Shown: positions 25,901 to 28,900 of the stretch, in pieces
How positions within the stretch are numbered: position 1 is the first letter of the stretch
Layout of the letters: every line of letters starts with the position of its first letter
Assembly: GCF_044324875.1 (NCBI RefSeq)
Contig: NZ_CP172185.1
Direction: 5' to 3' (one strand)
From: Escherichia coli
GTDB taxonomy: Bacteria > Pseudomonadota > Gammaproteobacteria > Enterobacterales > Enterobacteriaceae
Length of the DNA: 64,000 nucleotides
Program-made: the position numbers

Positions 25901-28900
25901 AAAAAGTTAATGCGTCGCGTAGTTCTTTAACACACGCATAGTTTTCTGCTTTCTCTGGGTCGCCGGTACGGTGTTCAGCTTCTTGTCTGCACCATTTGAT
26001 GACTTTCTCTGCGGCTGCGTGGAGACGCTGACGTTGCCAGTCGTATGTGTCGACCAGCCCATATGCGTGATTCTTTGCTTTGCTTAATTCAGCGACGAGG
26101 CATTCGGAATCAATCAAATTATTTTCCGCAGCGGACAGCGCTTGTTTAAGTCGCTCGATTTCTTGAGCCATGTAGTAGCCGGTTTTACTCCAGGTATCGA
26201 CATCATCGTCACTCATATCCAGTTCCATCGACGCCATCAGAACGGCGTCGTGATAGTTCTGGCTACCGCAGGTGATTGCAACGACGTAGGAGTCACTATT
26301 TTCTCGTTTATGGATAAGTACAACTGGGTTTTTGATCTTGCTCATTCCGCACCTCAGTAATTCATTAAAAATTTATATTCAATCAGCGCACCGAAAACGA
26401 CGGACGCCAGCAGCAGACCAAACAGCATGGACAGGAGGAATGACTTCATCGCTTTGCCTCCCGCTGTACGATTTTGTAGGCGCGCAGGATGTCGCGTGTT
26501 TTTCCTGACAACGATGACTTAACCCAGAAAAAGCCGCTGCGGTTTTCATAGATCCCCTGTACATTAAACAGCACCGCATCAACAACGCGGTTATGCTTTT
26601 GCAATGTCAGGCAGGAACTGGTGATCACGATGTTCGCTACGGCGCCATAGTCCTTGTATTGGATTTTCATTTACATGTTCCCCATAACGGTATCGCTCAT
26701 GTCGTTAACCATGCTCTGCCAGATTTCTTTGCCGCTTTGCGTCAGCTCGTTTCCACGAACGCATTTGCTTAACAGCTGAATACCAACGGCTTCCCATTGG
26801 GGGTAATTTTCTTTGATAGCCTTCAGAGCATAACCATCGATTAAATCCCTGATACCTTTAACCCCACCGATGATGTTTACTCGTATGGATTGCCCATTGA
26901 CATTAATCATGAAATGATCTCCGTTGGTGGCGGATATGTGGTTGTGCAGTGCAGCCGCATACTGATTTGCCAGCGCATTGAGGCGGAAATTTTGTGTAAT
27001 GAGTGGCATTATTTACCCTCCCAACCAATCACCTGAAACAGCCCCATTTTCGGGTGATACCAGCGGGTACCGCGTGGCTCTGCCTCTGACATCATCTGAT
27101 GAAATGCTTTCATGAACGGCTCAAGCTCCACGATAGCCCGGCGAGAAAGAAGACCATCTGGCGTCATAAATTCGTGCGTATCGGTTGGGATGCTGTAGGC
27201 ATTGACCAGATTGCGGCACTTGGCATCAGTCATTCCGCTTTTGGCGACCACCTGGCGATAACCGACATATCCGGCGCGCATATTTCCGCGTTTGATGTTC
27301 TCCACAGCTTTGGTGACCGTTTCGATCTTCTCTTCAACATGACTCAGGCGCTTCTGCTGGCGAACGGCATCGGCGGCCATTGCAGCGATCATCTCCATTT
27401 CCGTCAGCGGCGCGTGAGTTCGGAAATAGCTGTTAACCAGTTCGCGCTGAACCTGCCATGCAAGAGTATCGTTAAAAGGCTTCGTCAACATCAGGTAACC
27501 AGACTCGAAAAGAATGATCCCTTTGGCAGTTCGCGCGGCAAAGGCATCAGAAAGTGACTCCGTACGTATTACGTCCGCAGTCATTTCAAGAAAATCCACC
27601 CCTTCGATAAAGTGAGAACGGTTGCGGTTAAACGCAGCACGGGCGGTACCTTCCGGGCGCTGGTGGACGTCATCAATCATTGCAAATGTCACAACACGCT
27701 GACCGCGATATTCGATTACCGGAAACTGTTTGTTGTTGATGGTTACAGTATTCATTTTTATCTCCAGACAGCCCGGCGTGTAATACCGGGCATATGTATT
27801 ACTTAACCTGAATAAATGGTGTGTTGGCACCGCTGGTCATGTATTGCGGCAGTGTACCGTTCCACTTGTTGATGGCTTCCAGCTCCATAACGTTTGGGTT
27901 CTGGCGCAGAGCTTCACCGCGTAAACGAATAGCATCGGCTTCGGCCTGGGCTTTTGTGCGAATCGCATCTGCCTGTCCGGCAGCTTCCGCGCGCAACATG
28001 TTGGCTTCCGCTTCGCGCTGTTTTACTTCCTGCTCGCGTTGCAGGGTTTTCTGGTTGGCCGTGACTTTGGCATTAATGCTGTCGATAACAGTAGGCGGGT
28101 ACTCCGGCTTACCCACATATGAGAGGCTCATTACCTGAATACCGATGGGCGTCATTTCTTCCTGAATGTCTTTAAGAGCTGCATCCAGCAGCTCAGACTT
28201 GCCGCCGTCGATAAATTTGTCGGTGGTCATTTTGCTGGCCAGTCGGTTGAGTGCGTCGGCTATCTTCTGGCGCAGGTCGGTGTCGGTAATGTCGTCCACG
28301 CCTTTGCGGTAGGTCTGAAAGACTGTGGTAACTTTGGATGGATCAACTTTGTAGGCCACGCCGATGTGATAGCCGATGGTTGTACCGTCACTCATCTGGA
28401 AACTGAATGGATCATCGTAGGTCTTCATCTGCTTAAAGGTCGGGAAGATGTAAACCTCAGTGTTCCATCCCGTCCAGTAGCGCCCAACACCGACCACTTC
28501 ACCGACGCCTTTATCGTCGCCCAGTTTGTTTACTTTGATGCCCACATTACCAGGCTCAACGCGATCGCAACCGACAAGGCCAATGGTCGGCAGAACAATG
28601 GCTAAAGCAAAAAGTAATTTTTTCATCTTTTATCCTTAGAAAAAGAAAGACCCTTATAAATGGCATAAATGCAGGGCGGGGTCAGACACGCCAGAGCAAA
28701 GCCAGAAATCACTGCTATCGTATCCTTCATGGATATAAGGAACGGAACGAGTAATCCGTAAATGCATGCGATAATTGCCAGTAAAATTACTATTGTGAAA
28801 TACAGTCTCATTGGTCTGTGGTATCCCGATATTTTTAACCGACTGACAGCGCAATAAAGAGAATAATGATTTCTGTTAGTGTCAGCACTGTGGCAAGGAT

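What the first reader, a model, noticed from the sequence alone, without database searches (positions are those of the whole stretch)
27799..28811. Prophage-encoded SPFH/band-7 lipoprotein coupled to a small two-TM membrane protein
A 62-aa two-helix membrane protein is translationally coupled (overlapping stop/start) to a 275-aa lipoprotein with a stomatin/prohibitin-like core and a long charged coiled-coil tail. An SPFH protein with a small membrane partner as a phage moron suggests a membrane-acting function, for example superinfection exclusion or abortive infection by scaffolding or gating a membrane effector. This is inference from architecture and location only.
Basis: partly seen in the sequence, partly recalled or inferred. 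Interest (0 to 1): 0.6.

Follow-up and report, generated by a model that had tools for sequence, protein, structure and literature searches.

The report
Phage SPFH lipoprotein with hairpin partner
The two genes are real and are the prophage's copy of a widespread but unstudied phage gene pair, also found in virulent coliphage N4 (gp19/gp20): a tiny two-helix membrane protein plus a lipid-anchored stomatin/prohibitin-like protein that probably builds a cage on the periplasmic face of the inner membrane during lytic growth, so it does not look like a lysogen-expressed defence "moron".

Summary
On the minus strand, a 62-aa two-TM hairpin gene (28623-28811) overlaps by ATGA a 275-aa lipoprotein gene (27799-28626). 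The lipoprotein has a Pfam Band_7 domain (E=8e-31). Its AlphaFold model matches HflK/C, prohibitin, erlin and stomatin over the full length.

- The pair has no promoter or terminator of its own. It sits in the repressor-controlled leftward early operon of a phiP27-like prophage.
- The same cassette lies in early operons of P2-like (P88) and P1-like phages.
- It is homologous to gp19/gp20 of virulent phage N4 (35% and 63% identity).
- SPFH relatives occur in 809 of 50,697 phage genomes.
- The hairpin partner, with turn motif P-x-L-[VI]-S-[AS]-x-[SD]-[DT]..V..G, precedes the SPFH gene in about 80% of 53 diverse viral loci and is fused to it in about 13% of distant relatives.
- The partner is not NfeD, and the pair matches no PADLOC defence family.
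- The mature SPFH is under extreme purifying selection (dN/dS 0.02-0.05).

No functional study was found in the searched library. My best reading is a periplasm-facing SPFH cage with a split membrane anchor, made early in lytic development and acting on a conserved host inner-membrane process. It is a new variant of a known kind, of moderate interest.

The parts
28623..28811 (-). Gene for the 62-aa two-TM hairpin protein (PHROG 1130 family; N4 gp19 homologue), predicted N-in/C-in
   Evidence: The ORF is. It matches phrog_1130 with E=5e-23 and is 35% identical to N4 gp19. It is conserved upstream of the SPFH gene in 79/80 close loci and in 43/53 diverse viral loci. Positive-inside counts are N-tail 1.4, loop 0.3 and C-tail 2.9 K+R.
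28701..28745 (-). Codons for the conserved periplasmic-turn motif of the hairpin (residues 23-37: P-F-L-I-S-M-K-D-T-I-A-V-I-S-G)
   Evidence: Among 45 diverse hairpins, P is present in 43/45, L/M(+2) in 41/45, S(+4) in 44/45, A/S(+5) in 37/45, V(+11) in 35/45 and G(+14) in 42/45.
28633..28637 (-). Shine-Dalgarno AAGGA for the SPFH gene, inside the end of the hairpin gene; the ATGA stop/start overlap is at 28623-28626
   Evidence: Read from the sequence. Overlaps of 1-17 nt recur in most diverse loci.
27799..28626 (-). Gene for the 275-aa SPFH/band-7 lipoprotein (PHROG 200; phiP27 L05; N4 gp20 homologue)
   Evidence: The ORF is. It matches phrog_200 with E=2e-115 and Pfam Band_7 with E=8e-31. 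It is 63% identical to N4 gp20, E=1e-131. The AlphaFold model has pLDDT 80.7. Foldseek matches HflC/HflK, prohibitin, erlin and stomatin with E down to 3e-14.
28567..28626 (-). Lipoprotein signal peptide (residues 1-20) ending in lipobox L-V-G-C; Cys20 is codon 28567-28569, and +2 is Asp
   Evidence: Read from the sequence. The Cys is invariant in a 20-sequence alignment that includes 11 fusion proteins. Signal peptides diverge (50-60% identity) while the mature part stays 87-96% identical.
28003..28563 (-). SPFH (Band_7) domain, residues 22-208
   Evidence: Pfam PF01145 with E=8e-31. The model shows SPFH1 beta-strands 20-94 and an SPFH2 helices/strand region 96-175.
27901..28095 (-). Long alanine- and charge-rich helix (residues 178-242), equivalent to the wall-forming coiled coil of SPFH cages
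   Evidence: The model places helix H178-242 with pLDDT 84-92 over most of its length. It aligns with the HflK coiled coil.
27847..27867 (-). Conserved C-terminal motif K-W-N-G-T-L-P (residues 254-260), the family signature after the helix
   Evidence: W255 and G257 are invariant, and K254 and P260 are at least 90% conserved, in 20 diverse sequences. This motif served as the search pattern that recovered 543 viral loci.
27771..27791 (-). Stem-loop GCCCGG-N9-CCGGGC 7 nt after the SPFH stop, with no T-run; it marks the 3' edge of the cassette
   Evidence: Read from the sequence. Homology to phiP27 begins at window 27770. The terminator scan does not call it.
28835..28942 (-). Possible third small gene: a 35-aa single-TM ORF upstream of the hairpin gene (membership in the module uncertain)
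   Evidence: The ORF is. It is intact with conservative substitutions in 28 of 80 close loci. It has no PHROG match.

Best explanation
The pair is a conserved two-gene phage membrane module of the N4 gp19/gp20 type.

Shown or computed:
- The large protein is a full-length SPFH protein.
- Its signal peptide ends in a lipobox.
- The small protein is a two-TM hairpin with an invariant turn motif.
- The two genes are coupled or fused across very diverse phages.
- The pair is embedded in repressor-controlled early operons of temperate phages and also occurs in virulent phages.

Inferred:
- After export, the SPFH protein is lipid-anchored to the periplasmic face of the inner membrane (Asp at +2).
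- Like every structurally solved full-length SPFH protein, it oligomerises through its long helix into a closed cage over a patch of membrane.
- The hairpin, N-in/C-in with its conserved turn at the periplasmic surface, supplies the transmembrane palisade or anchor that the lipoprotein lacks. It acts as a split-off membrane anchor, and in the natural fusion proteins it is physically the N-terminus.
- The module is made early in lytic development, not in the lysogen. It insulates or reorganises a conserved host inner-membrane process for the phage's benefit.

My pick for that process is FtsH-type membrane-protein quality control, at about 0.25 on its own. FtsH-family proteases are the clients of the two best-characterised cages facing away from the cytoplasm or matrix, HflK/C and prohibitin. 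This would stabilise phage membrane and regulatory proteins and, in temperate phages, tune the lysis-lysogeny choice, much as lambda CIII does from the same operon position. The next most likely process is safeguarding membrane integrity and PMF until programmed lysis.
For: - SPFH identity: Pfam Band_7 E=8e-31. The AlphaFold model (pLDDT 80.7) has SPFH1, SPFH2, a 65-residue helix and a C-terminal helix. Full-length Foldseek matches to HflC/HflK, prohibitin, erlin, stomatin, flotillin and QmcA all have probability 1.0. HflK and HflC are the only PDB and NCBIfam sequence hits.
- Lipid anchor: the lipobox Cys is invariant, including in fusion proteins.
- Partner linkage: the hairpin lies upstream of the SPFH gene in 79/80 close loci and 43/53 diverse viral loci. 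I also found it by hand upstream in phiP27, Stx2 phages, Fraca, P18-100, P88, a P1-like plasmid, N4, Moo19, KE23, phi1026b, Ostro, Pokken, RcXuper and two metagenome contigs.
- Fusions: about 19 of 150 50%-cluster representatives are hairpin-lipobox-SPFH fusions, in a topologically consistent order.
- One hairpin family: six of the eight hairpins from other phages that were tested hit phrog_1130 (E from 1e-22 to 5e-5); the phi1026b and RcXuper partners did not.
- Early-operon placement and the lack of own signals.
- Presence in virulent phages: 809/50,697 phage records and N4 itself.
- Conserved-target argument: the mature SPFH is 95-96% identical in P2-like P88 and a P1-like plasmid and 87-88% in two other lambdoid-type phages, with dS 0.6-1.7 and dN/dS 0.02-0.05.
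Against: - Cage formation, inner-membrane retention and hairpin-SPFH contact are all inferences.
- Some enterobacterial relatives have Tyr or Glu at +2 (N4, Moo19, KE23), so the sorting signal is not uniform.
- Nothing links the protein specifically to FtsH. Identity to HflK/C is only 17-18%, no better than to prohibitin or erlin, and the NCBIfam HflK/HflC cut-offs are missed by a wide margin.
- A need for FtsH control in virulent phages is not established.
- Near-identical mature SPFH proteins work with hairpins only 25-32% identical, so any contact must rest on the short conserved motif or be indirect.
- Some lineages (PaP4, SunLIRen, Caulobacter BL57, Staphylococcus phage K) lack this hairpin.
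- A weak promoter-like site at 28972-28999 cannot be excluded as functional.
- A possibly related Pasteurella prophage SPFH protein is reported as expressed in culture (PMC9872710).
Confidence: 0.45

Rival explanations
1. Superinfection exclusion during infection, comparable to T4 Imm plus Sp. The hairpin and the periplasmic SPFH layer would block DNA ejection or cell-wall penetration by secondary phages at the inner membrane, protecting the infected cell, and the lysogen only if the pair is expressed there.
For: - The pair has an early-gene position and a periplasm/inner-membrane location, which is where ejection happens.
- In N4 and Moo19 it lies directly after a gene annotated as P22 gp17-like superinfection exclusion.
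- It is widespread in virulent phages.
- The hairpin evolves fast outside its motif.
Against: - The PHROG searches returned no superinfection-exclusion family for either protein.
- The mature SPFH is almost invariant across unrelated phages (dN/dS 0.02-0.05), which is unlike arms-race proteins.
- Discrete cages would cover only part of the membrane.
- No SPFH protein is known to act this way (my own knowledge).
Confidence: 0.15
2. Envelope stabilisation or counter-defence. The cage would rigidify or repair the inner membrane so that PMF survives until programmed lysis. This would blunt premature holin triggering, lysis from without, or membrane-depolarising abortive-infection effectors.
For: - Bacterial SPFH/flotillin proteins are linked to membrane fluidity and stress responses (PMC10434171 for HflKC stress tolerance; B. 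subtilis YdjI-PspA from my own knowledge).
- A fused homologue lies two genes from an Acb2/Tad1-type anti-defence gene.
- In P1-like plasmids the cassette replaces the envelope-stress-type tciABC genes (TerB-like).
- In Kayvirus the distant SPFH homologue sits in the lysis region (PMC7150955).
Against: - The evidence is purely contextual.
- No conserved third partner or defence-related neighbour recurs across lineages.
- It is unclear how a periplasmic cage would stop cytoplasm-side pore formers.
Confidence: 0.17
3. One reading: a prophage moron expressed in the lysogen that gives abortive infection or exclusion by scaffolding or gating a small membrane effector, the hairpin acting as a latent pore.
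For: - The element is a prophage.
- PHROG files the hairpin family under 'moron, auxiliary metabolic gene and host takeover'.
- The cassette moves between phage backbones like accessory cargo.
- A Pasteurella prophage SPFH protein is reported as detectable in cultured lysogens (PMC9872710); its homology to this family was not tested.
Against: - There is no promoter or terminator above chance.
- The pair is embedded in repressor-controlled early operons in three temperate backbones.
- Homologous pairs occur in virulent phages, which never form lysogens.
- There is no PADLOC hit at E<=0.1.
Confidence: 0.08
4. Host-directed lysogenic-conversion factor. The lipoprotein would be released in outer-membrane vesicles and act as a TLR1/2 agonist or virulence factor, as reported for Pasteurella multocida PM0222.
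For: PMC9872710 reports a prophage-encoded HflK/C-like SPFH protein found in OMVs, whose deletion attenuates virulence in mice. The pair occurs in Stx-converting phages.
Against: - Homology of PM0222 to this family was not tested here.
- Any triacylated lipoprotein stimulates TLR2.
- This does not explain the hairpin partner, or the presence in virulent phages of soil, water and plant bacteria.
Confidence: 0.03

Closest known systems
HflK/HflC-FtsH complex of E. coli (PDB 7vhp/7vhq, 7wi3, 9cz2)
   Same: - Full-length SPFH architecture (SPFH1, SPFH2, long helix, C-terminal cap segment).
- Predicted periplasmic orientation on the inner membrane.
- HflK/C are the best sequence and fold matches.
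- Historical link to the phage lysis-lysogeny choice through FtsH and lambda CII (my own knowledge; also cited in PMC4936722).
   Different: - Only 17-18% identity, and far below the NCBIfam HflK/HflC cut-offs.
- One SPFH gene rather than a K/C pair.
- A lipid anchor instead of an N-terminal TM helix.
- A separate two-TM hairpin partner that HflK/C lack.
- Phage-encoded.
- No evidence of FtsH binding.
SPFH-NfeD operons (QmcA-YbbJ, PDB 8z5g; YqiK-YqiJ; PH1511-PH1510)
   Same: An SPFH gene is translationally coupled to a small membrane-protein gene, the pair moves and co-evolves together (PMC2636767), and the SPFH protein forms a cage with its partner in the enclosed membrane.
   Different: - The partner here is a 62-aa hairpin with no room for the NfeD OB-fold and no Pfam NfeD match.
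- The SPFH domain is predicted to be periplasmic and lipid-anchored, whereas QmcA and YqiK face the cytoplasm (my own knowledge).
Coliphage N4 gp19/gp20 and PHROG families 1130 and 200
   Same: These are direct homologues: gp20 is 63% identical (E=1e-131) and gp19 35% identical, with the same order and overlap. The PHROG hits are E=2e-115 and 5e-23.
   Different: N4 is strictly virulent, and its lipobox is followed by Tyr-Asp rather than Asp-Arg. Neither N4 protein nor either PHROG family has an assigned function in the records or in the literature I searched.
T4 Imm and Sp (early superinfection-exclusion proteins)
   Same: This is a functional analogy only: a small inner-membrane protein plus a periplasm-facing protein, both made early in infection (my own knowledge).
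   Different: No sequence or family relationship was detected. The PHROG searches returned only phrog_1130 and phrog_200 plus unannotated families. The T4 genes are not adjacent, and neither product is an SPFH protein.
Pasteurella multocida prophage protein PM0222 (PMC9872710)
   Same: It is a prophage-encoded HflK/C-like SPFH protein of 25-35 kDa associated with the envelope and OMVs.
   Different: The reported role is as a host inflammatory agonist, not a phage-cycle function.

Membership tests
SPFH / Band 7 superfamily (PF01145) | Significant match to the Band_7 profile | tested here: met
   E=8e-31, residues 22-208, model positions 2-176 of 176.
SPFH / Band 7 superfamily (PF01145) | SPFH1/SPFH2 alpha-beta core followed by a long oligomerisation helix | tested here: met
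   The AlphaFold model has pLDDT 80.7 and a helix at 178-242. Foldseek gives probability 1.0 to HflC/K, prohibitin, erlin, stomatin, flotillin and QmcA over 240-300 columns.
SPFH / Band 7 superfamily (PF01145) | N-terminal membrane attachment | tested here: met
   The signal peptide ends in the lipobox L-V-G-C, and the Cys is invariant in 20 diverse relatives. This is a sequence-level prediction only; lipidation itself was not tested.
SPFH / Band 7 superfamily (PF01145) | Assembly into a large ring or cage on a membrane | not testable with these tools
   Only single-chain prediction is available, and no coordinates are returned for contact analysis.
HflK / HflC (FtsH modulators) | Score above the NCBIfam equivalog cut-offs | tested here: not met
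   TIGR01932 HflC scores 26 bits against a cut-off of 134.4. TIGR01933 HflK scores 23.6 against 159.4.
HflK / HflC (FtsH modulators) | Two paralogous SPFH genes (K and C), each with an N-terminal TM helix | tested here: not met
   There is a single SPFH gene, with a lipoprotein signal peptide instead of a TM anchor.
HflK / HflC (FtsH modulators) | Physical complex with FtsH | not testable with these tools
   This needs pull-down, cryo-EM or multimer modelling.
SPFH-NfeD operon | Partner carries the NfeD C-terminal OB-fold domain (PF01957), with or without a ClpP-type protease domain | tested here: not met
   A Pfam scan of three divergent hairpins found no NfeD match. The partner is 62 aa and consists of two TM helices.
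Phage moron (autonomously expressed lysogenic-conversion cassette) | Own promoter and terminator flanking the cargo | tested here: not met
   The region has 6 promoter-like sites against 11.3 expected by chance, none stronger than 9/12. There is no intrinsic terminator after the SPFH gene. In Fraca and P18-100 there is zero intergenic space. A consensus scan cannot exclude an atypical promoter.
Phage moron (autonomously expressed lysogenic-conversion cassette) | Restricted to temperate phages and expressed in the lysogen | tested here: not met
   Homologous pairs occur in the virulent phages N4, Moo19, Pokken and KE23. Expression in the lysogen was not testable.
Known anti-phage defence systems (PADLOC-DB v2) | Match of either protein to a defence-system model | tested here: not met
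   No family matched at E<=0.1 for either protein or for the two neighbouring proteins.
N4 gp19/gp20-type module (PHROG 1130 + PHROG 200) | SPFH lipoprotein with the C-terminal K-W-[ND]-G-x-L-P motif, preceded by a two-TM hairpin with the turn motif P-x-[LM]-[VIF]-S-[AS] | tested here: met
   phrog_200 E=2e-115 and phrog_1130 E=5e-23. Identities to N4 are 63% and 35%. Both motifs are present.

The most novel reading that the evidence does not exclude
Tailed phages of many lineages carry a self-contained kit for building their own SPFH nanocompartment on the periplasmic face of the host inner membrane. The kit is a lipid-anchored cage protein plus a split-off two-helix anchor. In fusion forms, signal peptidase II may separate the two parts after translation. 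Phages would use this compartment early in infection to capture or insulate a conserved host membrane machine, either FtsH-type quality control or the DNA-entry route. That would be a previously unrecognised, widely conserved class of viral host-membrane takeover device.
Probability: 0.3. Interest if true: 0.75.

Novelty: new variant of a known kind. Interest (0 to 1): 0.5.

Why it matters
SPFH cages (HflK/C, prohibitin, stomatin, flotillin, erlin) have recently become structurally tractable, but what they do to the membrane they enclose is still debated.

This is a compact, phage-encoded, two-component version that has no assigned function:
- It is under very strong selection.
- Relatives occur in about 1.6% of sequenced phage genomes, from the classic model phage N4 to Stx-converting prophages and P1-like plasmids, and in about 10% of complete E. 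coli genomes.

Because N4, P1-like and lambdoid systems are genetically easy, the module offers a direct experimental handle on two questions:
- What does a minimal SPFH cage do?
- Why do viruses need one?

It would also correct the misleading 'serine protease', 'transposase' and 'ion transporter' annotations attached to this family.

Tried and rejected
1. NfeD partner: a Pfam scan of three divergent hairpins found no NfeD and no other significant family. Rejected.
2. Known defence system: no PADLOC hit. Rejected as a known system.
3. P1 plp/upl ('putative lipoprotein' and 'upstream of plp') as the P1 name for this pair: reference P1 Plp and Upl are unrelated sequences. In P1-like variants the cassette instead replaces tciABC. 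Rejected.
4. 'Serine protease' annotation of phiP27 L05 and its relatives: no protease domain was found, only Band_7. I treat it as a legacy misannotation.
5. Own promoter or terminator: nothing above chance.
6. A conserved third partner: all-against-all clustering of ORFs in about 96 loci found none across lineages. The 35-aa ORF is confined to close relatives.
7. Literature: seven searches combining SPFH, prohibitin or HflC with prophage, phage-encoded, defence, exclusion, lipoprotein or N4-like found only annotation-level mentions. A June 2026 paper says the reason for the gene's presence in a phage genome 'remains unclear' (PMC13239085).
8. Contact analysis of the concatenated hairpin+SPFH AlphaFold model (pLDDT 82.5): not possible, because model coordinates are not exposed.
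9. The first related-loci run returned only near-identical loci. It was repeated with a divergent first sequence to sample diversity.
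Full report
**1. The observation**

The window carries both ORFs on the minus strand at the stated coordinates.
- The 62-aa product (28623-28811) is two hydrophobic helices joined by a four-residue turn, with basic residues at both ends.
- The 275-aa product (27799-28626) begins MKKLLFALAIVLPTIGLVG-C-DRVEPG. That is a signal peptide ending in a canonical lipobox, with Asp at +2.
- The two genes overlap as ATGA, and an AAGGA ribosome-binding site lies inside the end of the small gene.
- Pfam assigns residues 22-208 to Band_7/SPFH at E=8e-31.
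- An AlphaFold model (mean pLDDT 80.7) shows the SPFH1 and SPFH2 subdomains, a 65-residue helix (178-242) and a short C-terminal helix.
- Foldseek matches the model over its whole length to HflC/HflK, prohibitin, erlin, stomatin, flotillin and QmcA (probability 1.0, E down to 3e-14).

Both genes are real.
- The small ORF is intact in 79 of 80 close IMG/VR loci.
- It has dN/dS of about 0.16 against two diverged lambdoid copies.
- The mature SPFH part has dN/dS of 0.02-0.05.

**2. Genomic setting**

The flanking chromosome is Escherichia: bglX-dld-yehYXW-osmF at 98.7% identity to E. coli. The element is a phiP27-like lambdoid prophage.
- The integrase is at 23655-24941 and the CI-like repressor at 30989-31648. 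Both lie on the minus strand, with the pair between them.
- The pair therefore lies in the leftward early region.
- The same placement is seen in phiP27 (L05 plus an unannotated small ORF), Stx2-converting phages, phage Fraca and Klebsiella phage P18-100. In the last two the neighbouring genes abut with no spacer.
- A consensus scan finds no promoter-like site above chance and no intrinsic terminator after the SPFH gene.
- The only structure there is a GCCCGG-N9-CCGGGC stem-loop without a T-run (27771-27791). It coincides with the point where homology to phiP27 begins.

**3. A mobile cassette in early operons of three temperate backbones**

- In P2-like phage P88 the pair lies in the early operon between cox and the replication gene A.
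- In P1-like phage-plasmids a 1.1-kb cassette holding just these two genes exactly replaces tciABC. It sits between the tRNA genes and ban, downstream of the C1-operator-controlled Pban.
- The reference P1 genes plp and upl, which I suspected from their names, are unrelated.
- About 10% of complete E. coli genomes carry the SPFH gene: 534 of 5426 genomes, with 418 chromosomal and 198 plasmid places.

**4. Not confined to temperate phages**

- tblastn finds relatives in 809 of 50,697 phage records. These include Schitoviridae (N4-like), Vequintavirinae, Ounavirinae, Bruynoghevirus, jumbo phages, Kayvirus, Enterococcus phages, Lak megaphages and haloarchaeal viruses.
- Coliphage N4 itself has the pair. 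gp20 is 63% identical (E=1e-131) and gp19 is 35% identical, in the same order and overlapping.
- A search of 1.84 billion cluster representatives gives 230 clusters at E<1e-30, almost all of about 280 aa with an N-terminal lipobox.

**5. The partner is the defining novelty**

A two-TM ORF of the same family lies immediately upstream of the SPFH gene in phiP27-type phages, P88, the P1-like plasmid, Fraca, P18-100, N4, Moo19, Burkholderia phi1026b, Pseudomonas Ostro, Stenotrophomonas Pokken, Rhodobacter RcXuper and two metagenome contigs. In Pokken the ORF is unannotated. In Seunavirus KE23 it is also upstream, separated from the SPFH gene by a 54-aa insert.
- Six of the eight hairpins from other phages that I tested hit the same profile, phrog_1130. 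The phi1026b and RcXuper partners did not.
- In a diverse IMG/VR sample, 43 of 53 distinct loci have such an ORF within 400 nt, usually overlapping the SPFH start by 1-17 nt.
- About 19 of 150 cluster representatives are single proteins in the order hairpin, lipobox signal, SPFH. This is topologically consistent: N-in, out, in, then out to the periplasm. The lipobox Cys is retained in them.
- Across 45 hairpins the turn carries P(43/45)-x-[LM]-[VIF]-S(44/45)-[AS]-x-[SDN]-[DTS]-x-x-V-x-x-G(42/45). Basic residues are concentrated in both tails.
- The hairpin has no Pfam family and is not NfeD.
- Exceptions exist: PaP4, SunLIRen, Caulobacter BL57 and Staphylococcus phage K have other or no small membrane genes upstream.

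**6. Evolutionary pattern**

- The mature SPFH protein is 95-96% identical in P88 and the P1-like plasmid despite dS of 0.6-1.2. The signal peptide is only 50% identical, and the hairpin 25-32% identical with synonymous sites saturated.
- GC content also differs: 52.5% for the SPFH gene against 36-39% for the hairpin gene and spacer.
- So a recombination breakpoint sits at the signal-peptide/mature junction, and one SPFH core functions with very different hairpins.
- The extreme constraint on the core argues for a conserved target (self-assembly plus a host component) rather than a rapidly evolving competitor-phage target.

**7. What it most likely does**

Every solved full-length SPFH protein forms a closed cage over a membrane patch (see the entries matched). 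From established knowledge, the two best-understood cages that face away from the cytoplasm or matrix, HflK/C and prohibitin, enclose FtsH-family proteases.

I infer the following.
- The lipoprotein is retained on the periplasmic face of the inner membrane. Asp at +2 is the E. coli Lol-avoidance rule (my own knowledge). Tyr at +2, as in N4, has also been reported to retain (recalled, not checked).
- It oligomerises through helix 178-242.
- It uses the hairpin as its transmembrane anchor or palisade.
- Because the pair sits in repressor-controlled early operons and in virulent phages, it should act during lytic development.

My preferred client is FtsH-type membrane-protein quality control (about 0.25). 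This fits the operon position, which is where lambda keeps its FtsH inhibitor cIII. The main alternatives are membrane/PMF safeguarding (0.17) and infection-phase superinfection exclusion (0.15). None of these targets is shown.

**8. What is known**

PADLOC has no matching model. NCBIfam HflK/HflC cut-offs are missed by more than 100 bits.

Seven literature searches found only annotation-level remarks.
- Kayvirus MbpS was speculated to aid secretion (PMC7150955).
- A Pseudomonas satellite prophage SPFH was speculated to affect the lysis-lysogeny choice (PMC4936722).
- T4-like phages are listed as carrying SPFH ORFs (PMC1524935).
- A 2026 paper states that the reason for the gene's presence in a phage genome 'remains unclear' (PMC13239085).
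- The 2009 classification of prokaryotic SPFH proteins describes NfeD partners only and does not mention phages or lipoproteins (PMC2636767).

**9. Verdict**

The object is an SPFH protein, a known kind, in a distinctive and apparently undescribed configuration: lipid-anchored, periplasm-facing, and obligately paired or fused with a motif-bearing two-TM hairpin. That configuration is conserved across Caudoviricetes. I rate it a new variant of a known kind, with interest 0.5.

Noticed in passing
window 28835-28942 (-): A 35-aa single-TM ORF (MKSNRELNRVKLILILATVLTLTEIIILFIALSVG) lies in the 176-bp spacer upstream of the hairpin gene. It is intact with conservative substitutions in 28 of 80 close IMG/VR loci and has no PHROG match. 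It may be a third small membrane gene of the local operon.
   Followed up: partly
window 27771-27791 (-): A stem-loop GCCCGG-N9-CCGGGC sits 7 nt after the SPFH stop, with no T-run. Homology to phiP27 starts exactly at its base (window 27770), so it marks the mosaic boundary of the cassette. It could be an RNA-stability or processing element.
   Followed up: partly
L003 3948-5045 versus L008 (P1 reference) 15200-15925: In P1-like phage-plasmids the hairpin+SPFH cassette precisely replaces tciA-tciB-tciC (TerB-like 'tellurite/colicin resistance') inside the C1-controlled ban operon. The same slot therefore holds alternative envelope-related cargo.
   Followed up: yes
window 27799-28811: GC content is 52.5% in the SPFH gene and 36-39% in the hairpin gene and spacer. 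Synonymous divergence is also much lower in the mature SPFH than in the hairpin and signal peptide. Together these indicate a recombination breakpoint at the signal-peptide/mature-protein junction.
   Followed up: yes
window 27009-27830 (-): This is an ORF6N/KilA-N anti-repressor-like gene (phrog_1726, E=2e-69) directly downstream. The listed GTG start overlaps the SPFH gene and is probably over-extended. An ATG at 27755 preceded by GGAG fits better. The gene is shared with phage Fraca but not with phiP27.
   Followed up: partly
L014 218-1807; L096 1521-3762: A fused hairpin-SPFH homologue (P0239) lies two genes after a gene with the Acb2/Tad1 hairpin domain, an anti-CBASS/anti-Thoeris sponge family. 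Another homologue lies two genes after a phage-encoded ClpS adaptor gene.
   Followed up: no
public annotations of homologues: The SPFH family is variously annotated as 'serine protease', 'putative transposase', 'bacteriophage/transposase fusion protein', 'putative ion transporter' and 'lipoprotein'. Only Band_7 is detectable, so these names look like propagated misannotations.
   Followed up: partly
window 39412-39565 (+): tRNA-Met (CAT) and tRNA-Lys (TTT) genes lie side by side inside the prophage.
   Followed up: no
window 15000-24941: The prophage integrase gene (23655-24941, minus strand) lies next to the chromosomal bglX-dld-yehYXW-osmF region. That region is 98.7% identical to E. coli at best, so the host is Escherichia, but no identical genome is in the complete-genome collection.
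   Followed up: partly
L005 2145-3379 (Salmonella phage KE23): In this Seunavirus a 54-aa soluble ORF is inserted between the hairpin gene and the SPFH gene, so strict adjacency is not required.
   Followed up: no
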